Positions 22,297-46,302 of a stretch of DNA of 64,000 nt are shown here, piece after piece. A model generated the notes under the pieces. It ran no database searches, had not been told where the DNA came from, and was given only the letters and a program-made list of their open reading frames with translations. How positions within the stretch are numbered: position 1 is the first letter of the stretch; the number at the start of each line of letters is the position of its first letter. The stretch is from a candidate division Kazan bacterium (GTDB lineage Bacteria > Patescibacteriota > Kazan-3B-28): contig QMNG01000001.1 of the NCBI GenBank assembly GCA_003647645.1, positions 7,938-71,937 on the forward strand, written 5' to 3'. The translations under genes were made by a program, and so were the position numbers.

Positions 22297-22325
22297 TTGA
22301 CAAAGAAAACGAACTATGATATAAT
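22297..22325 (+). promoter_or_regulatory. Near-consensus sigma70 promoter
   Basis: TTGACA, 17-nt spacer ending in TGA, TATAAT. Confidence 0.7.
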
Positions 22326-22393: not shown

Positions 22394-23518
22394 ATGGTAA
22401 ATTCTGATGACAATCAGGGATCAGGGCATAAATCTGTGATTAAGAAGATTATGGTTGAGCAAGAAGAAAAAGCGCGGACTTCTGCTGATCCTTTGGTCGT
22501 GGTAATGAATGCGCTTAATGTCCTTAAGGAGCGGGAGCGCGAAGTTTTAATAAGCAGGTTTGGCCTGACTGGCGATAAAAAGGCCACTTTGGAGACTATT
22601 GGCAGGAAGTTACGGGTTACCCGTGAGCGAGTTCGTCAGATCGAAACAACTGCAATCAAGCGATTAGCCAACAGCCAGAGCAAAGAGCTGACACAACTGA
22701 TTAAAATAATAAACAGCTATATAACCGGCAATGGCGGTTTAACCGATCTAAAAGGGCTGGCTGAGTATCTTAAGGTTGATAGTGACCAGCGCGCCGAAGC
22801 CACGACCAACGCACTGCGTTTAGCTATGGCTGTAAATGGCGCAGTTTTGCCACTGGAGAAGCGCGCCGGCCTGAAGCCGGGCTGGGCACAAAAGCAGTTT
22901 CCCATCGATTTGTTAGTGCCGATTATTAATGAGGTTGAAAAGATTTTAGATGAAGCCAATCAGGTGATGTCGGACAGCGTGATCTGGGACAAATTTCAGG
23001 AAACTGATCTATATGCCAAAAATTCAGACAGGATCACTTCGTTGACGGTAAACGGAGCCATTCACGTGGCAATAAATATTACCCAGACCCGGGATGGCAA
23101 ATGGGGTCTAAGCTCGTGGCCGACTGTGGTGCCTAAACGGATTCGGGATAAGGTTTATTTAATTTTGAAACGTAAAAACGAGCCAATGCACTTTACTGAT
23201 ATTACTGAGGCAGTTAACCGAGAGTATCCCGATAAACAGGTGCTGAGCCGAACGGTGCACAATGAGCTTATCGGTGACGATCGGTTTGTGCTGGTGGGGC
23301 GGGGTATCTATGCATTGAAATCTTGGGGGTATAAACCGGGTGTGGTGGCCGACGTGATTCAAGATATATTAAAAAAGGCCAAGAGACCAATGACAACAAG
23401 CGAGATTATTGAAGCGGTCTTACAAATTCGCCAAATTAAGAGAAATACCGTTATTGCTAACTTGCAAAATCATAAGCTATTTAAAAAAGTGGGTCGGGGT
23501 ACCTATACGTTGGCTTAA
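22394..23518 (+). CDS. Sigma-70 region-4-like HTH protein with two HARE-HTH-like C-terminal domains
   Basis: REREVLISRFGL...ATLETIGRKLRVTRERVRQIETTAIKRLA is a region 4 signature; two repeats of the pattern ending VGRGIYALKSWGY and VGRGTYTLA. Confidence 0.55.
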   Translation: MVNSDDNQGSGHKSVIKKIMVEQEEKARTSADPLVVVMNALNVLKEREREVLISRFGLTGDKKATLETIGRKLRVTRERVRQIETTAIKRLANSQSKELTQLIKIINSYITGNGGLTDLKGLAEYLKVDSDQRAEATTNALRLAMAVNGAVLPLEKRAGLKPGWAQKQFPIDLLVPIINEVEKILDEANQVMSDSVIWDKFQETDLYAKNSDRITSLTVNGAIHVAINITQTRDGKWGLSSWPTVVPKRIRDKVYLILKRKNEPMHFTDITEAVNREYPDKQVLSRTVHNELIGDDRFVLVGRGIYALKSWGYKPGVVADVIQDILKKAKRPMTTSEIIEAVLQIRQIKRNTVIANLQNHKLFKKVGRGTYTLA

Positions 23519-34579: not shown

Positions 34580-35962
34580 ATGACAACGAAACTTAAGACA
34601 ACTTATGAAACAGTGATCGGCTTGGAAATCCATGTGCAATTGGACACAAAAACCAAGATGTTTTGCCGATGTGATAACGATTCGGATAATGCCGAGCCCA
34701 ATACTAATGTCTGTCCAGTATGTATGGGCTACCCTGGTGTATTGCCGGTGATTAATAATCAGGCCATCGAGTGGGGGATTAAGACGGCTCTAGCACTAGG
34801 TTGCGAAATTAATCCTATGCAGAGGTTTGATAGAAAAAATTATTTCTATCCTGATCTGCCGAAGGGTTATCAAATCTCCCAATTTTTTTATCCGGTAGGG
34901 GAGAATGGTGTTGTGGAAGTGGATTATTTGGCCCAAGACAGGAAAACCAAAAAAGAATTTAAACTGGGTATTACTCGTTTACATTTAGAGGAAGACGCTG
35001 GCAAGTTGGTGCACGCCAAGGGTGCTACATTGGTCGATTTAAATCGCTGTGGTACACCATTGGCAGAGATAGTAACCGAGCCGGATATTAAATCCCCCGA
35101 AGAAGCTAGGGCATTTTTGCAAGAGTTGCAGCGAATCGTGCGAACGATTGGCGTCTCCAAAGCGGATATGGAAAAAGGCCATTTGCGGGTTGACGCTAAT
35201 GTTTCCGTGCGGCCCAAAGGACAAAAAGAATTTGGAACCAAAGTTGAGGTTAAGAACATTAATTCATTTAAGTTTGTAGAAAAAGCTCTTAAGTATGAAG
35301 TTGGGCGGCAGATTGAGGTGCTCGAAAACGGGGGTACAATAGATCAAGAAACCCGGGGTTGGGATGAAAAAAATAACCAGACAATCCCCCAGCGGGGCAA
35401 AGAGGGTGACATCGATTATCGCTATTTTCCTGAGCCAGATTTGCCGCCGATCTATGTGAGCGAAGAGCAAATTAAAAATATTCAGAAAAATATGGAGGAT
35501 ATGCCCTCACTTCTGCGCAGGAAAGCCGAGGAATTTGGTTTGCCCTATGATAGGATTTCGGAATTGCAGGACATAGCAACATTGGAATATAACCCTTTGG
35601 TTGGATATGTAAAATTAATGGGGAGCAATCCCGGTTTAGACCCAGTCAAGGTTGTAAATATGTTAATTAAAATTCTGGCATTGGGGCGGAAAGAGGACGC
35701 CGGAATAAAAATAACCGATGACATGTGGCAAAAAGCCCTGGAAATTGTCGTGTCAAAAAAAGATTCGTTTACAGCTAAGGATAGTGATATTGAAGTCGTT
35801 GCCAAGAGTATATTAGAGTTGGAGAAGGAAGTTGTTGAGCGGTATAAGAAGGGGGAAGAAAAGCTATTCGGCTACCTAGTGGGGCAGGTGATGGCAAAAA
35901 TGAAAGGAACTGCAGAACCAGCTCTGGTACAGCAAATTTTAAAGAAATTATTGACAAAATAA
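34580..35962 (+). CDS. gatB: Asp/Glu-tRNA amidotransferase subunit B
   Basis: YETVIGLEIHVQL, KMFCRC, NTNVCPVCMGYPGVLP, TRLHLEEDAGK; ATG 34580 preferred over track start 34538. Confidence 0.93.
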   Translation: MTTKLKTTYETVIGLEIHVQLDTKTKMFCRCDNDSDNAEPNTNVCPVCMGYPGVLPVINNQAIEWGIKTALALGCEINPMQRFDRKNYFYPDLPKGYQISQFFYPVGENGVVEVDYLAQDRKTKKEFKLGITRLHLEEDAGKLVHAKGATLVDLNRCGTPLAEIVTEPDIKSPEEARAFLQELQRIVRTIGVSKADMEKGHLRVDANVSVRPKGQKEFGTKVEVKNINSFKFVEKALKYEVGRQIEVLENGGTIDQETRGWDEKNNQTIPQRGKEGDIDYRYFPEPDLPPIYVSEEQIKNIQKNMEDMPSLLRRKAEEFGLPYDRISELQDIATLEYNPLVGYVKLMGSNPGLDPVKVVNMLIKILALGRKEDAGIKITDDMWQKALEIVVSKKDSFTAKDSDIEVVAKSILELEKEVVERYKKGEEKLFGYLVGQVMAKMKGTAEPALVQQILKKLLTK

Positions 35963-35999
35963 ATTAGGTGTGGTATAATCAAAATAATAATAAATTTTT

Positions 36000-36362
36000 G
36001 TGATGTCAGAGCTGGAGAATCAATTTAATGAGAGACAAAGGGAACGGGAGCGAGATTCCGAGCAGGAGCAGATCTGTTCTCTTGAGGAAAGTTCAGCAGA
36101 TGCTGAAGAGGCTGAGGAGTACGGTTATCCTCTGCCTCAGACTGAATTGTTAGAAGAGTCTGAAGCAGATTTTGGGTCTCGGCGAGAGGTGTCGGATCTG
36201 GATCTTATCGGTGGCCAGCCGTTTGTGGTTTCTGGTTATGCCGATGATGGACATCCTCCTAAGGGGTTGGTGAGTATCGAAGAACTAGACGAAGCGATGG
36301 ATCAGTTGCCGGAAGATGATTCGGGAAGTTTGCGAAAAATTATTGATATTATCAATCATTAG
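36000..36362 (+). CDS. Highly acidic hypothetical protein
   Basis: 120 aa, Asp/Glu-rich; tgtggTATAAT at 35968-35980 upstream; directly precedes T4CP-like paralog 2. Confidence 0.45.
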   Translation: MMSELENQFNERQRERERDSEQEQICSLEESSADAEEAEEYGYPLPQTELLEESEADFGSRREVSDLDLIGGQPFVVSGYADDGHPPKGLVSIEELDEAMDQLPEDDSGSLRKIIDIINH

Positions 36363-36401: not shown

Positions 36402-38831
36402 ATGTTCTGGATTTATCTTACAGTCGCAATAGCCATAATCGCCGGCGGTAGCTGGCTGGTTTTTAATATAAAAAGGAGAAGGGGAGCGCCGGCGGGTGAT
36501 GACATTAACAGTCGGGTAAATCTAATGATTACTGTCCCGCGCGGCGAGGAGGAGGAAAAAGACGTCAAGGAGAAAATTTCTCCAATGGCGACGGTTATGA
36601 GCAATCTTGCTAACATTGACGAAGTGATTGAGAAGCGTCATCTGACTTTTGAGCTGGCCACTGAGGGTGAATCGATTGTTTTTTATTTAACGGTGCCCGG
36701 GCCGCTGGTAGAGTTTGTAGAAAAACAGATAACTTCGCAGTATCCGGAGGCGGTGGTGGAGTCATCACCGTATCCAAATATTTTTCCCAAAGATGGAAAG
36801 GTAACTGCGGCTCAATTGGCGCTGAAAAAGCCTGCCTATTTTCCGATACAGACATTCGAGGAATTGTCCACAGACGGTTTAAACGCCTTAACTAACGCGT
36901 TAAGCAAGTTGGCCCAAGTCCGGTCTGGGGCGGCGATCCAGATATGCTTCCGCCCAACCACGGATAAGAAATGGCAAAATAAAGCCAATGATGTGGCCAG
37001 CAGGATGCAGCAGGGTAATTTTGGAGACGACAATTTAGGCAAAGAAATGTTCAAAGAATTCGCCAGCATTATAAAAGCCAATGATGACGACAAGAAAGAA
37101 TTTTCAGAAAGTAAACGCTTAACGGGCGTGCAGGAAGAGATAATTGACGCCATTAGCAAAAAAGCGGCCCGGCCGGGCTTTGACGTGGTTATCAGAATGG
37201 TAGCGGCTGCGCCTGATGATAAAACAGCCAAACTGAATTTACACTCTTTGGTAGACAGCTTTCTGCAATTTGGTTCGCACCAAATAAATCAATTCGAGGT
37301 CAATAACAGAATTAGTAAACGAGAAATAATTAAAAACTATGTATTGCGCCAATTTGGAAATCCAAAAGATAGCTTTATTTTAAATACAGACGAGTTAGCA
37401 ACCATCTTTCACCTGCCTTATACCGGTATCGAAACCCCGAATATCCGCTGGGTGAGGGCTAGGCGTCTGCCGGCTCCAGATAATTTGCCCAAAGAGGGGA
37501 TTACGATCGGAAAAAACATTTTTCGCGGCATGGAGCGGATGGTAAAAATTAAGCGCGACGACCGACGCAGACATCTATATATGATTGGTAGAACTGGCAC
37601 CGGTAAAACCACCTGGATGCAAAATATGGCCCTTCAGGACATTATTAACGGCGAGGGAGTCTGTGTAGTAGATCCCCATGGTGAAATGATCGAATGGCTT
37701 CTACAGAGAATCCCCAAGGATAGAGTGGAGGATATTATTCACTTCTATCCGCCGGATATCGACCGGCCGCTGGGACTTAATCTGCTGGAAGCCAAAACTC
37801 CGACCGAAAAAGACATGGTGGTGTCGGAGATGATTTCTATTTTTTACAAGCTGTTTGATCCGGAAGGAACAGGTAATTTTATCGGCCCGGTGTTCGAGCA
37901 CTATATGCGAAACATTATGTTGCTGTTGCTGGCGGACGAGGCCAGCGGTGCCACACTGATTGATATCCCGCGGGTGTTGACGGACGACGCCTTTCGTGAG
38001 GCCAAATTAGCCAAAGTAACTGATCCAACAGTAATGCGATTTTGGAAAGAAGAGTTTGAAAAGGCCAAAAAAAGCAATCAGCACGGCGAGATGTTAAGCT
38101 ATATAATCAGTAAGATCGGCCGGTTTATATCCAATCAAACTATGCGCAATATTGTCGGCCAAAATAAAAGCTCCTTCGATATGCGGGATGTAATGGATAA
38201 CCAAAAAATTCTGCTGGTGAACTTGTCCAAGGGCTTAATTGGAGATATTAACAGCAATTTGCTTGGCTTTATCATTGTTTCTAAGCTACAGATGGCGGCG
38301 CTGTCCCGGGCCGATATGCCTGAATCTGAACGCAAGGACTTTTATCTTTATATTGATGAGTTTCAAAATGTTACAACCAATTCAATTACTACGATCTTAT
38401 CCGAAGCGCGCAAATACAAACTCGATTTAATAATTGCCCATCAGTTCATGGCTCAACTGGATGAAAAAATTCGGGATGCAGTATTAGGCAATGTAGGTTC
38501 GATGGTAGCGTTTAGGATAGGTGTCCAAGATAGTGAATGGCTGAGTGAGGAGTTTGCTCCCGATGTCAGCGAAACCGATTTGATTAATATTGAAAATCGC
38601 AACGCATATATCAAATTAATGATTGATGGGGGAGTCAGTCGCCCGTTTACAATGCAGACTCTGCCGCCAATGGGTCGTGAAAATCCGAGAATCAGCCAGG
38701 CTATCAGACAGCTCTCTAGGCTCAAATTTGGCCGGGATAAGCGGCTGGTAGATAGCGAGGTGGGTAAAAGGATTAAATTTGTAAAAAAGATGCCACCAGG
38801 GCCTGATAACTTGCCAAACAAGGGCTTTTAG
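36402..38831 (+). CDS. Membrane-anchored TraD/VirD4-like P-loop ATPase, paralog 2
   Basis: N-terminal TM; MIGRTGTGKT; DPHGEM; FYLYIDEFQNV; SEARKYKLDL; collinear with 23546..26452, including ATIFHLPY..TPNIRW. Confidence 0.6.
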   Translation: MFWIYLTVAIAIIAGGSWLVFNIKRRRGAPAGDDINSRVNLMITVPRGEEEEKDVKEKISPMATVMSNLANIDEVIEKRHLTFELATEGESIVFYLTVPGPLVEFVEKQITSQYPEAVVESSPYPNIFPKDGKVTAAQLALKKPAYFPIQTFEELSTDGLNALTNALSKLAQVRSGAAIQICFRPTTDKKWQNKANDVASRMQQGNFGDDNLGKEMFKEFASIIKANDDDKKEFSESKRLTGVQEEIIDAISKKAARPGFDVVIRMVAAAPDDKTAKLNLHSLVDSFLQFGSHQINQFEVNNRISKREIIKNYVLRQFGNPKDSFILNTDELATIFHLPYTGIETPNIRWVRARRLPAPDNLPKEGITIGKNIFRGMERMVKIKRDDRRRHLYMIGRTGTGKTTWMQNMALQDIINGEGVCVVDPHGEMIEWLLQRIPKDRVEDIIHFYPPDIDRPLGLNLLEAKTPTEKDMVVSEMISIFYKLFDPEGTGNFIGPVFEHYMRNIMLLLLADEASGATLIDIPRVLTDDAFREAKLAKVTDPTVMRFWKEEFEKAKKSNQHGEMLSYIISKIGRFISNQTMRNIVGQNKSSFDMRDVMDNQKILLVNLSKGLIGDINSNLLGFIIVSKLQMAALSRADMPESERKDFYLYIDEFQNVTTNSITTILSEARKYKLDLIIAHQFMAQLDEKIRDAVLGNVGSMVAFRIGVQDSEWLSEEFAPDVSETDLINIENRNAYIKLMIDGGVSRPFTMQTLPPMGRENPRISQAIRQLSRLKFGRDKRLVDSEVGKRIKFVKKMPPGPDNLPNKGF

Positions 38832-38838
38832 ATGTAGA

Positions 38839-39417
38839 ATGACGCGTACTGTTAACAGAAATATAGAAATCAAAAGAAAGGAAAATAAAATGACAGACAA
38901 ATCCAAAATAGAAGTAGTTAAACAAATGCTAGAAAGCGCGAGCGCTAACTTGGCTTCAGCCAAGCAGATCTTGGGTGAACTTTTAGGCACTTCCTTCGAT
39001 GATGGCGTGATAAGTAAAACTACCGGTCTATCGTCCCGAGGGAATATCATTGAAGGCGTGTTTGACGGCCAGCATATGCTCGACGGCGATGGCAAAAAAT
39101 ATCCCGTGCCTGCCAACTATGCCAGCAAGTCTAAATTAGTGGTCGGCGATGTGCTTAAGTTGACCATTCAGGATGACGGCAGCTTTATATTCAAGCAGAT
39201 CGGCCCAGTTGAACGCAAGAAGTTAATTGGCACTCTGGTTCATGAAAATGATGAGTATAAAGTCGTTGCTGGCGGGAAGTCTTATTCCGTGCTGATGGCT
39301 TCTGTGACGTACTTCAAGATCAGCCCCGGCGATCAAGTAACCATTATGGTGCCCAAAGATAATGAAAATGTTGAGTGGGCCGCAGTAGAAAGCGCAATTA
39401 TTCAACCCGAGGGCTAG
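38839..39417 (+). CDS. Hypothetical protein
   Basis: 192 aa (or start ATG 38890, MTDKSKIEVV); predicted helix then beta-rich C-terminal half; no motif recognised. Confidence 0.45.
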   Translation: MTRTVNRNIEIKRKENKMTDKSKIEVVKQMLESASANLASAKQILGELLGTSFDDGVISKTTGLSSRGNIIEGVFDGQHMLDGDGKKYPVPANYASKSKLVVGDVLKLTIQDDGSFIFKQIGPVERKKLIGTLVHENDEYKVVAGGKSYSVLMASVTYFKISPGDQVTIMVPKDNENVEWAAVESAIIQPEG

Positions 39418-39995
39418 TTTATAGGTGTCAGGGTTATATCTGATTTATGTCGTACAAGATACATTGTGCGACTATTCCTGTTTCGATATACAGGCATATA
39501 TTATGTCTATCTTGCACTGGTACATATCCCCTAACATAAATTATGTTGGAAATTTTAAACTTTAATTATTTAGTTGTTAAACTTTCGTCTCTTAAAATGA
39601 CCCCGGCTTACGTGAATTCCCTATTCCAGGTGTAAATGGCTATTTTTATGCTCTGGGAGCTAATAAATTGACCTTTGACAGAGGAAAGGGGCTCAAATCC
39701 CGTAGGATATGAGCCCAAACCACCCAGGATACATGTTCCGCTCCAGGAGGGGGAAGTTGTCGGAGGGAAATCACCACCCATTTATAGGGGGATGATTGTT
39801 AATTACCCTGGGAAGTGTCCTCATACTAATCCAATTATTTCTAATATGTCAAATTTTTGTACAAAAAAGGGGCCAACTATCCGTCAGCCCCAAGGTGCAC
39901 ACCTCGATGGGGTAGGGTGTAGGACACCTTCCCTCCTCTGGCATGCCAGTGGTTCTTCTGAAAGGGGTAATGGTATGTGCAGATGTAGATCCCCG

Positions 39996-40352
39996 CTAGC
40001 CTGTTGCAGTTGGTGATGAAGACGAAGAAGTTGTTGTCAACATGTGGGCGTTAATGAATTCCTTCAGGTCCTTATCGTCTTCCTCACACTTCCCCTCAGT
40101 ACATGGGAAGTAGCCAACTTTTTCACCCACCTCGATACAGAGTTCTTTTCCCCTTAACCAGATGGATACTGGAACATATGCTTCTTCTTCTGTGCTAATT
40201 ACTACGCCTTCAAAGTGTGTTACGACTCCTTTTTGCACCATCATGACGAGATTGTGGGCCTGGACACGGCTGCGAATTACCACAGGACCGTGGCCATGGA
40301 CCATTTTCCCGCCATAAATAGAGCGACTGTGAGTACCCCTTGCGAAAGACAT
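39996..40352 (-). CDS. Hypothetical protein with Ser/Thr-rich tail
   Basis: Track ORF 39996..40442; ATG 40352 sits 7 nt after ggggagga; MSFARGTHSRSIYGG... Confidence 0.45.
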   Translation of the reverse strand: MSFARGTHSRSIYGGKMVHGHGPVVIRSRVQAHNLVMMVQKGVVTHFEGVVISTEEEAYVPVSIWLRGKELCIEVGEKVGYFPCTEGKCEEDDKDLKEFINAHMLTTTSSSSSPTATG

Positions 40353-40565
40353 TGCGGTTTCCTCCCCGTTTATTAAGGTTGTAAGGTTGAGAGAGGCCGT
40401 CCCGTCCTCCTGCGAGTATCCAAAGGAACAATAAACACACACGGCAACATAACCCCATTAGCAAGAACCAGTTGACATTTTTATTATACTGAATTATCGG
40501 TCTCCCAACAAGAAAAAAGGAAGGTTAGCGATTTACCTTCCTTTTTTTGACATGCTGTGCTTCTC

Positions 40566-40880
40566 TTAGAAAAAAGAAGCATCGGGTGCACAGGCCTTAA
40601 ATCGAATCCGTGGTAGTTTGTCTTGGGGGAGATCCAGAGTAACAACATCAGTCAAACAGACGCTCATTTGTTCCGCGGTAGCATCGAGCTTCTGGATAAC
40701 TAGGCTGCTCTTATCCGATTCAATCCCAATCAAGATACCCTCCACCGTCTCATTACGGCCAATTCCAATTTGGAGCTGTTGGTCTCCTGCTAGTCGATCG
40801 ATCAGGACCAAGTATCCGTTGATACAGGCCGAACTGATGTTGATGATGATCTCTTCAGTTTTTCTGGTGGCTGCTGGCAC
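40566..40880 (-). CDS. Hypothetical protein
   Basis: 104 aa; GTG start 9 nt after aaggagg; beta-rich; no motif recognised. Confidence 0.45.
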   Translation of the reverse strand: MPAATRKTEEIIINISSACINGYLVLIDRLAGDQQLQIGIGRNETVEGILIGIESDKSSLVIQKLDATAEQMSVCLTDVVTLDLPQDKLPRIRFKACAPDASFF

Positions 40881-40904
40881 TAGTTTTTGCCTCCTTGGTA
40901 TTTT

Positions 40905-41747: not shown

Positions 41748-44700
41748 TCAACTCTTCTTAATTTCTTGGACAAATTTAGTGAGATCGGTTAGCCAATCAT
41801 GAGAGAAATCACGCTGACTGACTCGAATTTCTTTTTCTCCTATTTGCAAACTAGGCGCCAGTTTGAGTAAGGGCTCTAAGGTTTTAGGTTTGGGTGTTTT
41901 GGTTAGATGAATAATTATTTGGTACTCCGGGATTTCAGTGGATGATTTTATATTTTTGGCAGTAATTGCAGTGACAACCTGTGTATTCAGAGCTGACAGT
42001 TTCAACATTAGTAGCTTTTTTAGATTGACGACCTCTTCCGGCAGTTTACCGAAATTTTCTTCAATATTTTTAAACTCCTGATTGAGAACCCTGTCGTTCT
42101 CTATTGTACCGAGAGTTTGGTAAATTTTTAGACGCTGGCTTTCGGCATCGACATATTTCGTAGGCAAATAAGCACTGACTGGCAAATCGATAGTAACATC
42201 ACTGACGTCAACTTTCCTTCCTGCACGCATCTCATCAATAGCTTTGTTGAGCAGTTTGGTATACAAACTTAGACCGATAGCTGTGATGTGGCCATGTTGT
42301 TGCTTGGACAGAACACCCCCTGCTCCCCTGATTTGCATATCCCGCATGGCGATATTGTAACCACTGCCCAGATCGGTATTTTCTTGGATGGTTTTAAGGC
42401 GCTCTAAGGCCTTGAGCGAGAGTTTACCCTTGTTATAAAGGAAATACGCATAAGCCTGAACCTGCCCCCTGCCAATCCGGCCACGCAGCTGGTGCAGTTG
42501 GCTCAAGCCGAAATGTCCGGCATCATCGATGATCAATGTATTGACATTGGGATTATCTAAACCATTTTCAATAATGGTGGAGGCGATCAGCACGTCATAT
42601 TTATTTTGGTTAAACTCCTGCATGATTTTAGCCAGTAGGCGCTCACTCATCTGACCATGGGCGTGAATAAACTTCACCTCAGGCATTAATCTTTTGAGCT
42701 TGTGCTGCATGGTATCAATGGTCTGGACTCGGTTATGAACAAAATAGACTTGTCCGCCGCGTCTGACTTCTTTTTCAATGGCCTGCTTAATTAGATTGTT
42801 ACTGTATGGTGCAACGGTTGTGATGATTGGCAGGCGGTTGGTCGGCGGGGTTTCGATGACACTGATGTCCCGGATACCGGAAAGAGCCAAGTTGAGAGTT
42901 CGGGGAATTGGGGTGGCAGTCAGACTTAAGACGTCAACATCCGAGCGCAGCATTTTCAGTTTTTCTTTGTGGGCTACGCCGAAGCGTTGCTCCTCATCGA
43001 TGATGACCAACCCAAGGTTCTTAAATTTGATATCTTTGGACAAAAGCCGATGGGTACCAATAACAATATCCACTTCACCGACTTTCAGCTGGGCGATAAT
43101 TTTCGCTTGGTCTTTTTTGGACTTGAATCGGCTCAGAGCCGCCACTCTTGTGCCGAATTGTTTGAGTCGTTCGGTAAAAGTTTTATAGTGTTGTTCGACC
43201 AAAATGGTTGTGGGTGCCAGATAGGCCACCTGATAGCCAGAAGTAACTGCTTTAAAAGCTGCCCGAACAGCGACTTCTGTTTTGCCGAAGCCCACATCAG
43301 CTACCAACAGGCGGTCCATGGGTTTATCTCGTTCCATGTCTCTCAGAATTTTGTTAATTACAGTCTCCTGATCTGGCGTTTCAGAATAGATAAAGCTGTC
43401 AGACAAGGCCTTGCTCCAGAATTCCTCGGAATTAAAACTGATGCCTTGTTTAAGTTGGCGTTTGGCGTAGAGATCAAGCAGCTCCTTGGCGAACTTATGG
43501 GATTCTTTACGGATCTTGCCAATTGTCCGCTTCCATGAATGACTGGATAATCGAGTAAGTTGCGGAGTTCTGCCATCGATTGAGATGTATTTACTGATTT
43601 TGTCTATTTGATCAACTGGAGCATATAGCTTATCCCCTTTGGCATACTCCAAAATTAAGTATTCCCGTTCGACGCCATTGAGTTGGATCTTCTGGATATC
43701 AATCAATCTTCCAATACCGTGGTCATTGTGAACAATGTAATCCCCTTTCTCAATGTCAGCCATAAACAGGCGCTGTTCACGATGGGATGTTTTTGCCTCT
43801 GCTTGGGTGTCGGTAGTGGCAAATATCTCCTGATCTGTCAAAACGACAAGTTTTAAGCTGGGGCTGACAACTCCCACTCCGGCGATTGGCGGCAAAAATT
43901 GAGGATTTTTGCCTGGGGCTAAATCGGCTTCCTTTAATATCTGGCCCAGAGACTTTTGCTTGTCGCTACTAATGGCCACTTGCCACTTGTCTTTTATACG
44001 TTTAGATATGTCATTAGTCAGCTTGTCCATTTGTGAGGCGTAAATTGGGGCGTCGGTAAAATCAAAGCTAATTTGGCTAACATCACCAGAGGCTATGGCT
44101 TCAATTTTTATAAGGGGGATGCTATCCAAGGCCTTGTTGACTACTGCCAATTTAGTGTTTTCGCTAGCCACGAACATCTCATATAGGGACTGCATTAATT
44201 CCTCGGTGTGGTCCAGAATTGTAATAAAATTCTGCTTGTTTTGGCTGATGTATTCGACCAAGGTTGGAGCAAAACTTCTGTTTTTGAGCGCGGATATATT
44301 GATGGAAGAATCGTCTTTAATTTTGTTGCCGCTCACCGGATCAAACGAATAAATTCCGTCAATTTTATTGCCGGTGAATTTAATGCGATGCGGGCTGTCA
44401 TTTCCCAATGGAAATATATCGACCACCTCGCCTCGGTGGGCAATCTCGCCAACTTGAAAAGTTTTGGCTTGTCTGTCAAAACCTAAGCTGATAAGTTTGG
44501 CAACCAAGCTTGGTGGAGAAATTTCGTCACCAACTTTTAATTTTATACTGGTGGCTGGAGCACTGAGAGGTTCAATTAGATTATTGCCGACAAAGAAGAA
44601 AATCTTTCCAAGCGAGTTAAGATCTTTGACTATTTTAATCCGTTTATTAAAGTTTTCAATAAATTCTTGCCGGTTTACGTTGCTGGAGCGCAATGGGGGG

Positions 44701-44954
44701 TAAATTACAGGACTGATTCCCCAAAGCTCTCTGAGTAATTTTTGAATTCGAAATTGCTCTTGTTCGCTTCTAGTGACAAAGATGATAGGTTTTGAGGCCC
44801 TGTGAACTAATCCAGCCAACATCAAAGACCGCCCAAAATTATTGAGTCCTGTAAGAGTCAGCTTTTTGCTTCCCGCTGATTTCAAAAGTTGTTTAAAAGC
44901 CGCTGTAGTAGCAAACTTCTCTAAAATCGGTCGGAAAAGCTTTATTGTGTCCAA
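41748..44954 (-). CDS. mfd: Transcription-repair coupling factor
   Basis: CarD-like module (GDYIVHNDHGIGR), helicase motifs DVGFGKTEVA, DEEQRFG, LSLTATPIPRT, QLHQLRGRIGR; TTG start. Confidence 0.95.
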   Translation of the reverse strand: MDTIKLFRPILEKFATTAAFKQLLKSAGSKKLTLTGLNNFGRSLMLAGLVHRASKPIIFVTRSEQEQFRIQKLLRELWGISPVIYPPLRSSNVNRQEFIENFNKRIKIVKDLNSLGKIFFFVGNNLIEPLSAPATSIKLKVGDEISPPSLVAKLISLGFDRQAKTFQVGEIAHRGEVVDIFPLGNDSPHRIKFTGNKIDGIYSFDPVSGNKIKDDSSINISALKNRSFAPTLVEYISQNKQNFITILDHTEELMQSLYEMFVASENTKLAVVNKALDSIPLIKIEAIASGDVSQISFDFTDAPIYASQMDKLTNDISKRIKDKWQVAISSDKQKSLGQILKEADLAPGKNPQFLPPIAGVGVVSPSLKLVVLTDQEIFATTDTQAEAKTSHREQRLFMADIEKGDYIVHNDHGIGRLIDIQKIQLNGVEREYLILEYAKGDKLYAPVDQIDKISKYISIDGRTPQLTRLSSHSWKRTIGKIRKESHKFAKELLDLYAKRQLKQGISFNSEEFWSKALSDSFIYSETPDQETVINKILRDMERDKPMDRLLVADVGFGKTEVAVRAAFKAVTSGYQVAYLAPTTILVEQHYKTFTERLKQFGTRVAALSRFKSKKDQAKIIAQLKVGEVDIVIGTHRLLSKDIKFKNLGLVIIDEEQRFGVAHKEKLKMLRSDVDVLSLTATPIPRTLNLALSGIRDISVIETPPTNRLPIITTVAPYSNNLIKQAIEKEVRRGGQVYFVHNRVQTIDTMQHKLKRLMPEVKFIHAHGQMSERLLAKIMQEFNQNKYDVLIASTIIENGLDNPNVNTLIIDDAGHFGLSQLHQLRGRIGRGQVQAYAYFLYNKGKLSLKALERLKTIQENTDLGSGYNIAMRDMQIRGAGGVLSKQQHGHITAIGLSLYTKLLNKAIDEMRAGRKVDVSDVTIDLPVSAYLPTKYVDAESQRLKIYQTLGTIENDRVLNQEFKNIEENFGKLPEEVVNLKKLLMLKLSALNTQVVTAITAKNIKSSTEIPEYQIIIHLTKTPKPKTLEPLLKLAPSLQIGEKEIRVSQRDFSHDWLTDLTKFVQEIKKS

Positions 44955-44957
44955 TCC

Positions 44958-44986
44958 TTGACTGAATTAATTATATGTGGTATAAT
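44958..44986 (+). promoter_or_regulatory. Near-consensus extended -10 promoter facing away from mfd
   Basis: TTGACT, 17-nt spacer ending in TGG, TATAAT; the best promoter match in the window; no plus-strand CDS follows. Confidence 0.65.
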
Positions 44987-44992
44987 GAAAAG

Positions 44993-45265
44993 ATAGGGAT
45001 ATATTTCCTATTACATGCTCCTCAAGGCATAGGGCATAGGCGGTAGAATCTTGCTCGCATTTGGACTATTCTGCCCTCCTTGAATAGATCAAGAACATGT
45101 GAGCAAGATTCCTCTGCTTATTCCTCTGAAATCCCAATCCTTTCATTCAAGTGTATGGATTTGGTAGGTTTCGGGCTATGGGGAGCTGGGGAAGCTTCGC
45201 TAGATTGGCCTTTGGGCCGTTCTGGCAAGCAACGGCGAAGGCGGGGCTTAGTCCCCGTTTTCGCT
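44993..45265 (+). ncRNA. Candidate ~270-nt ncRNA between mfd and pth (antisense to their spacer)
   Basis: Bounded by promoter 44958-44986 and hairpin cgggg-cttagt-ccccg + ttttcgctt (45242-45265); 11-bp helix gaatcttgctc:gagcaagattc enclosing ctattc-tgccctcctt-gaatag; two attcctct repeats. Confidence 0.4.
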
Positions 45266-45814
45266 TATAAATTTTTCATTAATTATTTGTTCGGTTCTTG
45301 CAATTGCAAAATTCATTTTTTTTATTTCAGAAATGGAGAATCTTCCAAGAACATAATCGCTGGTGCTTTTTATCTCTGAAGGTTTGTTGTGATGGTTGTC
45401 TGAGATGTCCGGCCGGCCCACCCCAATTCGAATCCGTTTAATGTCTGTGGTGTTCAAAGCGTCAATAATGGACTGCATACCTCTATGCCCAGCGCTGCTG
45501 CCTGTTTTTCGATAACGGACTTCACCGGTCGGCAGATCGACGTCATCATAAATAACCAAAACATTGTCGTCGGTCACATTAAAGTAACCAATCAACATCT
45601 TAACCGCTCTACCTGAATTATTCATAAAGGTAGTCGGTTTGGCAAGGATTAAATTATCAATTTCTGCAATTTCAGAATTACTTTTCTTATGAATTCTAAA
45701 ATTTGTCTTTAGTTTTCTGGCTAAATGATCAACCGCCATAAATCCCACGTTATGGCGAGTTTTATTATACTGCTTGCCGGGATTTCCGAGTCCAACAACT
45801 AGCTTACTTTTCAT
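45248..45814 (-). CDS. pth: Peptidyl-tRNA hydrolase
   Basis: LVVGLGNPGKQYNKTRHNVGF, NNSGRAV, DDVDLPTG; internal ATG 45814 preferred over 45841. Confidence 0.9.
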   Translation of the reverse strand: MKSKLVVGLGNPGKQYNKTRHNVGFMAVDHLARKLKTNFRIHKKSNSEIAEIDNLILAKPTTFMNNSGRAVKMLIGYFNVTDDNVLVIYDDVDLPTGEVRYRKTGSSAGHRGMQSIIDALNTTDIKRIRIGVGRPDISDNHHNKPSEIKSTSDYVLGRFSISEIKKMNFAIARTEQIINEKFISENGD

Positions 45815-46049
45815 TTTCGGGGTTTTCTTCTGATTTCTCATGTTTGTCGGCAGTAGTTTGTTCTATTTCCCCGCGTCTGTTGTAAGTTGGAAAAGGTTCT
45901 TTGCCTATTCCCTCTTTGTCATATCTATCCTGACCTTTACGGGTTTTGGGAACCGGCTCAACCTTCCCAACCTTTTTGGGAACATCATCCTCGCCATCCG
46001 GAAAGTAAGCCGGATTTAGACCCTCGCTGCCTCCGATTTTTTTTATCAT
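45804..46049 (-). CDS. Hypothetical charged, low-complexity protein
   Basis: 81 aa, no motif; overlaps the pth start region. Confidence 0.35.
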   Translation of the reverse strand: MIKKIGGSEGLNPAYFPDGEDDVPKKVGKVEPVPKTRKGQDRYDKEGIGKEPFPTYNRRGEIEQTTADKHEKSEENPENEK

Positions 46050-46053
46050 TTAG

Positions 46054-46302
46054 TTAGATAACTACCTCAGTACCCTCTTTGATGGGCTTATCGACTTTCA
46101 GGCCGATAACATCGCCCTTCTTGGCCTTGTCCACACTTTCTTTTTCGATTTGCATAGATTCGACCTTCTGGGAGTGAATTTCTTCACCACCCTTTTTGAA
46201 AGTGACAGAGTCACCTAGCTTCAGCGGGCCGGCAAGCTCAACAATCGCTACGCCAATCTTGTCGTAGTAATGGGTTACCTTACCAACTTTTTTGTCAGCC
46301 AT
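46054..46302 (-). CDS. Small EF-Tu domain-2-like beta-barrel protein
   Basis: 82 aa; KVTHYYDKIGVAIVEL...LKLGDSV.F......Q.V.SMQ......D.A.KGD.IGLKV pattern of translation-factor domain II. Confidence 0.5.
   Translation of the reverse strand: MADKKVGKVTHYYDKIGVAIVELAGPLKLGDSVTFKKGGEEIHSQKVESMQIEKESVDKAKKGDVIGLKVDKPIKEGTEVVI

What the first reader, a model, noticed from the sequence alone, without database searches (positions are those of the whole stretch)
44958..45265. The best promoter in the window drives a ~270-nt non-coding plus-strand transcript between mfd and pth
A TTGACT-17(TGG)-TATAAT promoter (44958-44986) lies 4 nt from the mfd start codon and points the opposite way. No plus-strand gene follows; track ORF 45080..45379 has no RBS and runs antisense into pth. 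The unit ends at cgggg-cttagt-ccccg + ttttcgctt (45242-45265), which overlaps the pth stop.

The RNA would contain:
- A long helix, gaatcttgctc (45037-45047) with gagcaagattc (45092-45102).
- That helix is capped by ctattc-TGCCCTCCTT-gaatag.
- Further CCUC-type boxes: gctcctcaagg and two attcctct.

These are anti-Shine-Dalgarno-like sequences, which could sequester ribosome-binding sites or a CsrA-like protein.

Alternative reading: the same region on the minus strand is a structured pth-mfd spacer with several SD-like boxes and mini-uORFs.
Basis: partly seen in the sequence, partly recalled or inferred. Interest (0 to 1): 0.55.

Follow-up and report, generated by a model that had tools for sequence, protein, structure and literature searches.

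The report
New structured small RNA, Kazan bacteria
Between the pth and mfd genes of an uncultured "candidate division Kazan" bacterium lies a real, separately transcribed, highly folded small RNA gene that matches no described RNA family, is conserved in the ten related genomes I could retrieve, and has an unknown job (most likely gene regulation by base pairing).

Summary
A TTGACT-17-TGg-TATAAT promoter (44958-44986, +) and an intrinsic terminator (45235-45264 plus U tract) bracket a ~272-nt plus-strand transcript in the pth-mfd spacer.

- **Fold:** the plus strand folds far better than chance (z = -9.5). The minus strand gives z = -2.6.
- **Relatives:** ten distinct pth-spacer-mfd loci, all from candidate division Kazan or Patescibacteria metagenomes, keep the promoter hexamers, the TG and the same architecture.
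- **Covariation:** 15 of 52 pairs on a sequence-only alignment show compensatory changes, against 8.7±1.8 in shuffles.
- **Strand:** paired cells hold 60 G·U against 5 A·C, which points to the plus strand.
- **Not a known family:** no Rfam match at E≤10 for the window spacer or E≤1 for six relatives, no conserved ORF, no tmRNA.

So it is a new sRNA family of narrow distribution. One Kazan relative has pth and mfd 12 nt apart and no RNA.

- It is the third-best promoter in the window, not the best.
- The helix coordinates are off by 9.
- Only the apical CCCUCCUU loop is a conserved, unpaired "anti-SD" box, and it is absent in 2 of 10 members.

Function is inferred. The RNA is necessarily antisense to any pth-mfd read-through transcript, and its CU-rich loop could pair with Shine-Dalgarno sites.

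The parts
44958..44986 (+). Sigma-70-type promoter: -35 TTGACT (44958-63), 17-nt spacer, extended -10 TGgTATAAT (44978-86)
   Evidence: scores it 11/12 with TG. TTGAC[T/A]-17-TGnTATAAT is found in all 10 distinct family members. It is the third-best site in the window.
44992..45012 (+). Inferred transcription start (~44992-44994) and the 5'-terminal hairpin P1 (GAUAGGGA-UAUAU-UUCCUAUU)
   Evidence: The start is inferred from its distance to the -10 box. The hairpin appears in the MFE folds. AAUAGGG is conserved at the 5' end in most members. P1 is absent in L091 and L094. In L097, L098 and L103, 90-125 nt of extra sequence precede P2.
45036..45121 (+). P2 long hairpin. P2a is 45036-43 with 45114-21. 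P2b is 45046-59 with 45098-45111 (GAAUCUUGCUCGCA / UGUGAGCAAGAUUC, nearly invariant). P2c is 45066-71 with 45082-87.
   Evidence: P2b is 95.6% paired with 3 compensatory pairs.
45072..45081 (+). Apical loop UGCCCUCCUU. It contains CCUCCUU, identical to the core of the 16S rRNA 3' tail (the anti-Shine-Dalgarno sequence; that comparison is from general knowledge).
   Evidence: CCCUCCUU is invariant in 8 of 10 members and absent in L091 and L094. Predicted P(unpaired) is ≥0.99.
45126..45174 (+). P3 domain. The outer stem is 45126-33 with 45167-74. The inner stem is 45134-40 with 45157-64. Five relatives carry an extra hairpin (P3b) here.
   Evidence: In the outer stem, 7 of 10 positions change on both sides across members while pairing is kept. 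The inner stem has 3 such positions of 7, and P3b has 2 of 4.
45179..45193 (+). Conserved G-rich motif UGGGGAG (45179-85), repeated as UGGGGAA (45187-93) in this lineage
   Evidence: UGGGGA[AG] is present in all 10 members just upstream of the terminator. No consistent nested partner was found. It could pair with the apical loop at -7.3 to -12.6 kcal/mol.
45194..45230 (+). Extra hairpin found only in the window lineage, an insertion relative to all other members
   Evidence: It appears as a gap in every other member in alignments A1 and A2. It folds as a hairpin.
45235..45266 (+). Intrinsic terminator: stem 45235-46 with 45253-64, containing the GGGG/CCCC hairpin, followed by a U tract. The expected RNA 3' end is ~45262-45266.
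   Evidence: Six of 12 stem positions change on both sides across members and the stem is rich in G·U pairs.
45248..45814 (-). pth (peptidyl-tRNA hydrolase, 188 aa). Its 3' end is convergent with the RNA and overlaps it by about 15-20 nt.
   Evidence: (P0001 is 100% identical, PF01195).
41748..44954 (-). mfd (transcription-repair coupling factor, 1068 aa, TTG start). It is divergent from the RNA promoter, and its SD (AAGGA) abuts the -35 box.

Best explanation
**What it is.** This is an independently transcribed, highly structured small non-coding RNA. It is about 272 nt here and about 235-340 nt in relatives. It defines a previously undescribed family found in a subclade of candidate division Kazan (Patescibacteria/CPR).

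**How it is expressed.** A near-consensus extended -10 promoter fires away from mfd. Transcription runs across the whole pth-mfd spacer and stops at an intrinsic terminator whose loop holds the pth stop codon.

**Architecture.**
- A 5' hairpin (P1).
- A long hairpin (P2) with an almost invariant 14-bp helix and an exposed CCCUCCUU loop.
- A second stem domain (P3) that covaries strongly.
- A single-stranded UGGGGAR motif.
- The terminator.

**Most likely mechanism (inferred).** It regulates by base pairing in two ways.
1. pth and mfd behave as an operon: they are 12 nt apart in a relative that lacks the RNA. No mfd promoter, and no good pth terminator, is detectable on the coding strand inside the spacer. 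The RNA is therefore fully complementary to the intercistronic part of any pth-mfd read-through transcript. That should uncouple or limit mfd expression through duplex formation and cleavage, and through head-on transcription. This resembles GadY acting on gadX-gadW.
2. Its exposed CU-rich apical loop can pair with Shine-Dalgarno regions in trans, as the C-rich loops of RNAIII, RsaE and RoxS do. The mfd ribosome-binding site UCAAGGA is one such site.

**Shown versus inferred.** The gene, its strand, its structure and its conservation are shown. Transcription is inferred from the signals. The targets and the mode of action are also inferred.
For: **Transcription signals.** The promoter and terminator are found in the window and the promoter in every relative.

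**Fold.** Plus-strand z = -9.5 against -2.6 for the minus strand.

**Family.** There are 10 distinct members, always between pth and mfd.

**Conservation.** The core is 84-91% identical where flanking coding DNA is 73-75% identical.

**Covariation.**
- 15 of 52 pairs change on both sides against 8.7±1.8 in shuffles (0 of 500), and 3-8 when the partners are slid. 91% of cells are paired against 36-52% when slid.
- On the manual structural alignment, 96% of cells are canonical and 22 of 61 positions are compensatory. For the helices re-checked by sliding, 96% are canonical in register against 38-49% when slid.

**Strand.** 60 G·U against 5 A·C cells. The covariance model gives 180-187 bits against 28-38 bits on the opposite strand.

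**Not a known family.**
- No Rfam hit at gathering score across the whole window, or at E≤10 within 44700-45500.
- No Rfam hit at E≤1 in six relatives.
- No tmRNA.

**Loop.** P(unpaired) ≥0.99.

**Operon logic.**
- L099 has pth-12 nt-mfd and no RNA.
- No promoter on the coding strand in the spacer, in the window or in L083, L091 and L097.
- The mfd RBS UCAAGGA is complementary to the loop's UCCUUGA in the window group.
Against: - There are no expression data, so transcription itself is inferred from signals.
- The CCUCC loop is missing in 2 of 10 members (L091, L094). SD pairing therefore cannot be the universal function.
- Complementarity between a CU-rich loop and SD sites is generic and proves nothing.
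- A purely cis-antisense role does not explain the near-invariant sequence of helix P2b or the invariant UGGGGAR motif. These look more like protein-recognition or tertiary-contact elements.
- A weak coding-strand terminator-like hairpin exists in L091. Read-through from pth is therefore not certain everywhere.
- Only 10 sequences in about 4 groups are available, so covariation statistics are limited. The manual alignment was fitted to the structure.
Confidence: 0.45

Rival explanations
1. It is a protein-binding or ribonucleoprotein RNA. It would act as a scaffold or decoy that sequesters a protein or the 30S subunit, rather than as a base-pairing regulator. The invariant P2b duplex, the CCCUCCUU loop and the UGGGGAR motif would be recognition or tertiary-contact elements. 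The loop and the motif might form a pseudoknot.
For: - The P2b sequence is nearly invariant on both strands, while other helices drift and covary.
- UGGGGA[AG] is invariant in 10 of 10 members.
- The loop and GGGGAG can form 6 bp at -7.3 to -12.6 kcal/mol, a perfect CUCCCC·GGGGAG duplex in L097, L098 and L103.
- The multi-domain fold has an extreme z-score.
Against: - No partner protein can be named.
- L091 and L094 keep UGGGGAA but lack the loop, so there is no covariation for the proposed pseudoknot.
- It shows no resemblance to 6S, CsrB/RsmZ, SRP or Y RNA models.
- It has only one or two GGA-type motifs, unlike CsrA sponges.
Confidence: 0.22
2. It is a riboswitch-like cis element. A ligand-binding three-way junction would control its own terminator and so gate antisense read-through into pth. 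Riboswitch-controlled antisense RNAs are known in Listeria and Clostridium (from general knowledge).
For: A complex conserved junction sits immediately upstream of an intrinsic terminator. The only sequence downstream on that strand is the antisense of pth.
Against: - A 37-nt hairpin is inserted between the conserved core and the terminator in the window lineage. In addition, 90-125 nt of extra sequence precede P2 in L097, L098 and L103. Together these argue against a tightly coupled expression platform.
- No conserved antiterminator alternative was found.
- No riboswitch model matches.
Confidence: 0.07
3. It is a very divergent copy of a universal or widespread RNA (6S, SRP RNA, RNase P RNA or tmRNA) that the Rfam models fail to recognise in this CPR lineage.
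For: CPR genomes are known for divergent RNAs (general knowledge). The strong promoter and high structure would suit a housekeeping RNA. The rest of the genome could not be searched for the canonical copies.
Against: - There is no Rfam match even at E≤10 with permissive filters, and ARAGORN finds no tmRNA.
- The defining features are absent: no end-to-end rod with a central bubble (6S), no GNAR-capped helix 8 motif (SRP), no GGAAAGUCC/P4 elements (RNase P), and no tRNA-like end.
- A Kazan relative lacks the RNA at this locus. The model also finds nothing at the pth loci of other Patescibacteria.
Confidence: 0.05
4. The functional molecule is the minus strand: a structured intercistronic pth-mfd spacer with SD-like boxes and mini-uORFs. 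Or the region encodes a small protein.
For: On the minus strand the apical loop reads AAGGAGGG, a perfect SD. Short ORFs exist on both strands.
Against: - The minus strand folds with z = -2.6 only.
- 60 G·U cells would become A·C mismatches on that strand.
- The opposite-strand covariance-model score is 28-38 bits against 180-187.
- The conserved promoter points the other way.
- Indels of 1, 2 and 37-41 nt, together with missing or shifted start codons, break every candidate frame.
Confidence: 0.04

Closest known systems
GadY of E. coli, a cis-encoded sRNA antisense to the gadX-gadW intergenic region (from general knowledge; Opdyke et al. 2004 and 2011)
   Same: Both are sRNA genes with their own promoter and terminator. 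Both lie on the opposite strand of the spacer between two co-oriented genes, so the sRNA is perfectly complementary to the intercistronic part of the dicistronic mRNA.
   Different: - There is no sequence or structure similarity and the phylum is unrelated.
- This RNA is 2-3 times longer.
- It fills the entire spacer.
- It has covariation-supported domains and invariant motifs that a pure antisense role does not require.
- Processing of pth-mfd mRNA has not been shown.
C-rich-loop, Hfq-independent sRNAs of Gram-positive bacteria: S. aureus RNAIII and RsaE, B. subtilis RoxS, streptococcal csRNAs (from general knowledge)
   Same: All are stand-alone structured sRNAs with an exposed C/U-rich hairpin loop complementary to Shine-Dalgarno sequences. 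Here the loop is CCCUCCUU with P(unpaired) ≥0.99.
   Different: - No Rfam match to RsaE, RoxS, RNAIII or csRNA models.
- There is a single such loop instead of several.
- The loop is absent in 2 of 10 members.
- Targets are unknown.
6S RNA (Rfam RF00013)
   Same: Both are potentially abundant, highly structured non-coding RNAs of about 200-300 nt driven by a strong sigma-70 promoter.
   Different: - The 5' and 3' ends do not pair.
- There is no large central bubble.
- The architecture is a series of hairpins and a stem domain.
- No covariance-model hit was found.

Membership tests
Any described RNA family (Rfam 15, 4227 models) | Covariance-model match at or near the family's gathering score | tested here: not met
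   In the window, only two tRNAs reach gathering score. Within 44700-45500 at E≤10 there are only two miRNA-model noise hits (15.5 bits, E~4). In six relatives nothing in the spacer reaches E≤1.
6S RNA | The 5' and 3' ends pair into a closing stem, giving a rod-like fold with a large central bubble that mimics an open promoter | tested here: not met
   The MFE and consensus folds show a 5' hairpin, a long hairpin, a second domain and a terminator. There is no end-to-end pairing.
tmRNA / SRP RNA / RNase P RNA | A tRNA-like domain with a tag ORF; a helix-8 motif capped by a GNAR loop; or the P4 and CR-I/CR-V motifs | tested here: not met
   ARAGORN finds no tmRNA. No Rfam hit was found. Direct reading of the sequence shows none of these motifs.
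Stand-alone bacterial sRNA gene | Its own promoter and Rho-independent terminator in an intergenic region, with no conserved ORF | tested here: met
   Searches cover the signals. Searches show that no frame is conserved.
Stand-alone bacterial sRNA gene | A detected transcript of defined length | not testable with these tools
   No RNA-seq or Northern data are available.
Structured RNA family (comparative criterion) | Conserved secondary structure supported by compensatory changes above controls | tested here: met
   15 of 52 pairs are compensatory against 8.7±1.8 in shuffles (0 of 500), and 3-8 when slid. On the manual alignment, 22 of 61 positions are compensatory and 96% of cells are canonical; the slid control is. 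The set holds only 9-10 related sequences.
Anti-SD (C-rich loop) trans-acting sRNAs | An exposed C/U-rich loop complementary to SD, conserved across the family | tested here: inconclusive
   The loop is present and unpaired in 8 of 10 members. It is replaced by closed hairpins in L091 and L094.
Anti-SD (C-rich loop) trans-acting sRNAs | Demonstrated pairing with the translation-initiation regions of target mRNAs | not testable with these tools
   Only generic complementarity was seen. An example is the mfd RBS UCAAGGA with the loop's UCCUUGA, at -8 to -13 kcal/mol.
Cis-antisense RNA of an operon spacer (GadY-like) | The opposite-strand mRNA spans the region | tested here: inconclusive
   Three results point to read-through.
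- pth-12 nt-mfd in L099.
- No coding-strand promoter in the spacer.
- No U tract after the hairpin on the coding strand in the window.

Against that, a weak coding-strand terminator-like site exists in L091, and there are no transcript data.
Riboswitch / cis-regulatory leader | A co-oriented downstream gene under its control | tested here: not met
   Downstream on the + strand lies only the antisense of pth.

The most novel reading that the evidence does not exclude
The RNA is a lineage-specific ribonucleoprotein or decoy RNA of ultra-small CPR bacteria. Its invariant CCCUCCUU loop copies the 16S anti-Shine-Dalgarno tail. Together with the invariant GGGGAG (SD-like) motif, it would tune translation initiation globally by competing for SD sites or 30S subunits. 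Alternatively, it would couple that control to Mfd levels through its obligatory antisense relation to pth-mfd. Either way this would be a new functional RNA class rather than one more target-specific sRNA.
Probability: 0.15. Interest if true: 0.7.

Novelty: new member of a known kind. Interest (0 to 1): 0.5.

Why it matters
- **Little is known about CPR RNA regulators.** CPR/Patescibacteria have tiny genomes and few known regulators, and to my knowledge few if any of their non-coding RNAs have been characterised. Two full-text literature searches returned nothing relevant to Patescibacteria or Kazan among the top-listed papers.
- **Such a gene is unlikely to be idle.** A ~270-nt gene with a near-consensus promoter is kept in a ~0.7-Mb-class genome. 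It is at least as conserved as the neighbouring essential genes.
- **It offers a concrete candidate.** This is a covariation-supported RNA regulator in this radiation, and a ready-made case of an sRNA inserted antisense into an operon junction next to the transcription-repair coupling factor.
- **It is not a conceptual surprise.** Orphan structured sRNAs are found regularly.

Tried and rejected
- **Rfam.** Three searches were run: the whole window at gathering score, the region at E≤10, and six relatives at E≤1. None gave a hit.
- **tmRNA.** ARAGORN found none.
- **nhmmer.** The RNA was searched against 80 pth loci from GTDB genomes. These included Uhrbacteria, WWE3, Berkelbacteria and other Patescibacteria. 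There were no hits.
- **Covariance model R1.** It was run on 37 sources, a selection of those pth loci plus the window. There were no members outside the Kazan set and no paralogue in the window.
- **Metagenome pattern scan.** It found only one extra member, L092.
- **Viral-contig pattern scan.** It gave 10 matches, none of which fits the model, so I treat them as chance matches. The element is not phage-borne.
- **Small-protein reading.** Rejected, because frames are broken by indels and start codons are not conserved.
- **Minus-strand reading.** Rejected on fold, G·U/A·C asymmetry and model score.
- **Closing helix UUCCUC/GGGGAG.** I considered a helix between the linker and the GGGGAG motif. 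It conflicts with the P3 outer stem in L097, L098 and L103 and is weak in L091 and L094, so I dropped it.
- **dif site or DNA-level palindrome near the terminus.** No dif-like match was found. The promoter-spacer palindrome has the wrong geometry.
- **mfd promoter on the minus strand inside the spacer.** The scans found none.
- **Literature.** Two searches gave nothing relevant among the top-listed papers.
- **Limits.** The complete Kazan genomes (600-700 kb contigs, P0126 and P0127) could not be fetched.

Full report
**What is in the sequence**

On the plus strand, TTGACT (44958-63), a 17-nt spacer ending in TGG, and TATAAT (44981-86) form an 11/12 extended -10 promoter. It lies 3 nt from the TTG start of the 1068-aa mfd ORF (41748-44954, minus strand).

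About 272 nt downstream is a terminator: a stem at 45235-46 with 45253-64, containing a GGGG/CCCC hairpin followed by GUUUUCGCUU. The stop codon of pth (45248-45814, minus strand, PF01195) sits in the terminator loop.

The long helix and its cap exist, but at 45046-56 with 45101-11 and at 45066-87.

The promoter is not the best in the window. Two perfect 12/12 TG-extended sites lie at 22297 and 35951. Both sit ahead of protein genes.

**Is it more than chance, and which strand**

- The 278-nt plus-strand RNA folds at -129.9 kcal/mol against -86.1±4.6 for shuffles (z = -9.5, 0 of 200 as good).
- The minus strand of the spacer gives z = -2.6.
- No Rfam family matches at gathering score anywhere near, nor at E≤10 within 44700-45500.
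- ARAGORN finds only two tRNAs in the window.

**Relatives**

The genome belongs to candidate division Kazan. The Mfd protein is 100% identical to an NCBI entry of that name. Kazan or Patescibacteria entries form the 51-84% identity shell, and identity then drops to about 43%.

The GTDB scan with Pth found nothing closer than 48%. I therefore used Pth homologues from the large protein collection and looked up their contigs.

- Ten distinct sequences carry a 260-490-nt pth-mfd spacer: the window (identical to L081 and L082), L083, L090, L091, L092, L093, L094, L097, L098 and L103. L092 came from the metagenome pattern scan.
- Every one has TTGAC[T/A]-17-TGnTATAAT pointing away from mfd.
- One Kazan relative (L099, Pth 55% identical) has pth and mfd 12 nt apart and no RNA.
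- In L104, pth is not next to mfd.

**Conservation and structure**

The core is 84-91% identical to L083 and L090, where pth and mfd DNA are 73-75% identical. At greater distance it is about as conserved as the coding DNA.

All members share this order of elements:

1. A 5' hairpin P1. It is absent in L091 and L094, and 90-125 nt of extra sequence precede P2 in L097, L098 and L103.
2. P2a (AUAGGCGG / CUGCUUAU).
3. P2b (GAAUCUUGCUCGCA / UGUGRGCAAGAUUC), which is almost invariant.
4. P2c capped by YNCCCUCCUU. This is present in 8 of 10 members and replaced by a closed hairpin in L091 and L094.
5. P3, with an outer and an inner stem. Five members have an extra hairpin, P3b.
6. The invariant motif UGGGGA[AG].
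7. The terminator.

The window lineage alone has an extra hairpin at 45194-45230.

On the purely sequence-based MAFFT alignment with the RNAalifold structure:

| Measure | Observed | Shuffles | Partners slid by 1-3 columns |
|---|---|---|---|
| Cells paired | 91.2% | 85.3% (0 of 500 reach observed) | 36-52% |
| Pairs with changes on both sides | 15 of 52 | 8.7±1.8 (0 of 500 reach observed) | 3-8 |

A helix-by-helix manual alignment of all 10 members gives 96% canonical cells. Compensatory changes occur at 22 of 61 positions, including 7 of 10 in the P3 outer stem, 6 of 12 in the terminator and 2 of 4 in P3b. For the helices re-checked by sliding, 96% are canonical in register against 38-49% when slid. 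The manual alignment was fitted to the structure, and the sequences fall into about four groups, so these numbers are supportive rather than a formal test.

**Strand**

- Paired cells contain 60 G·U against 5 A·C.
- A covariance model of the core scores 180-187 bits on the plus strand in close members, 52-58 bits in L097, L098 and L103, and 19-25 bits in L091 and L094.
- The reverse strand scores only 28-38 bits.

**Coding potential**

- Indels between members are 1, 2 and 37-41 nt.
- The AUG at 45178 is absent in L092, L094 and L103.
- The candidate minus-strand mini-ORF starting at the P2b complement is read in different frames in different groups.

The track ORF 45080-45379 is therefore spurious.

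**Distribution**

- The model finds no copy at the pth loci of other Patescibacteria or other phyla, and no second copy in the window.
- Ten pattern matches in viral contigs do not fit the model, so I treat them as chance matches.
- The family appears confined to a Kazan subclade and to this one locus.

**Mechanism (inference)**

Two things follow from the anatomy.

First, pth and mfd look like an operon into whose junction the RNA gene is inserted backwards.
- They are 12 nt apart in L099.
- No coding-strand promoter is found in the spacer, in the window or in three relatives.
- The terminator hairpin lacks a U tract on the coding strand in the window.

If mfd is expressed by read-through, its mRNA contains the full complement of an sRNA made from a near-consensus promoter. 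Duplex formation, cleavage and head-on transcription should then modulate mfd. This is formally like GadY on gadX-gadW (general knowledge).

Second, the apical loop CCCUCCUU is predicted to be ≥99% unpaired. It contains CCUCCUU, the anti-SD core, so it can pair with SD sites. These include the mfd site UCAAGGA in the window group. This is the mode used by C-rich-loop sRNAs of Gram-positive bacteria (general knowledge).

Several points weigh against taking either as the whole story:
- The loop is missing in L091 and L094.
- SD complementarity is generic.
- The near-invariant P2b duplex and the UGGGGAR motif suggest a protein or tertiary contact.
- GGGGAG can pair with the loop at -7.3 to -12.6 kcal/mol, but there is no covariation to test this.
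- The lineage-specific hairpin between the core and the terminator argues against a riboswitch-type expression platform.

**Verdict**

This is a non-coding plus-strand transcription unit. It is a new family of a known kind: a bacterial structured sRNA. The proposed anti-SD or CsrA-sponge role remains a hypothesis with one point in its favour (the loop) and one clear exception.

My confidence that this is a genuine RNA gene on the plus strand is about 0.9. My confidence that it acts by base pairing, cis-antisense on pth-mfd and/or loop-SD pairing, is about 0.45.

Noticed in passing
window 39400-40900: Cumulative GC skew peaks here. Gene orientation also flips, with plus-strand genes to the left and minus-strand genes to the right. 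This looks like the replication terminus. An E. coli/Bacillus-type dif pattern finds nothing within 3 mismatches. The sRNA, about 5 kb away, would be transcribed head-on to the fork.
   Followed up: partly
window 22297-22325 (+) and 35951-35979 (+): Two perfect TTGACA-17-TGnTATAAT promoters. The first precedes a Sigma70_r4 + HARE-HTH protein (22394-23518). The second lies in the last codons of gatB. It precedes a very acidic 120-aa ORF (36000-36362), which is followed by a TrwB/TraG-like coupling ATPase (36402-38831).
   Followed up: partly
window 45248-45266: The last six codons of pth (ISENGD*) are encoded by the 3' arm and loop of the sRNA terminator, with the TAA stop in the loop. L083 shows the same arrangement (ISENGA*). 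In L091-type relatives pth stops just outside the hairpin.
   Followed up: partly
window 45804-46049 (-) and 46054-46302 (-): Two small ORFs (81 and 82 aa) lie directly upstream of pth. One or both have counterparts of 67-89 aa in the same position in most of the Kazan relatives. Neither has a Pfam hit above cut-off. The 82-aa protein gives only weak similarity to Peptidase_U32_C and EF-Tu domain 2.
   Followed up: partly
L090 4001-4561: In this relative (JGI 3300033153, 455-kb contig) pth is called as two pieces of 139 and 46 aa. This suggests a frameshift or an assembly error.
   Followed up: no
L099 3001-3520: A Kazan-like relative (Pth 55% identical) has pth and mfd only 12 nt apart and no copy of the RNA in 6.5 kb. 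The RNA gene is therefore either an insertion into an operon junction in one subclade or a loss in another.
   Followed up: partly
L097 4942-5037, L098 4740-4860, L103 1242-1350 (minus strand of the loci): In these three members, 90-125 nt of extra structured sequence lie between the 5' end and P2. The inserts include GGAGG- or GGGAA-rich hairpins and have no Rfam match.
   Followed up: no
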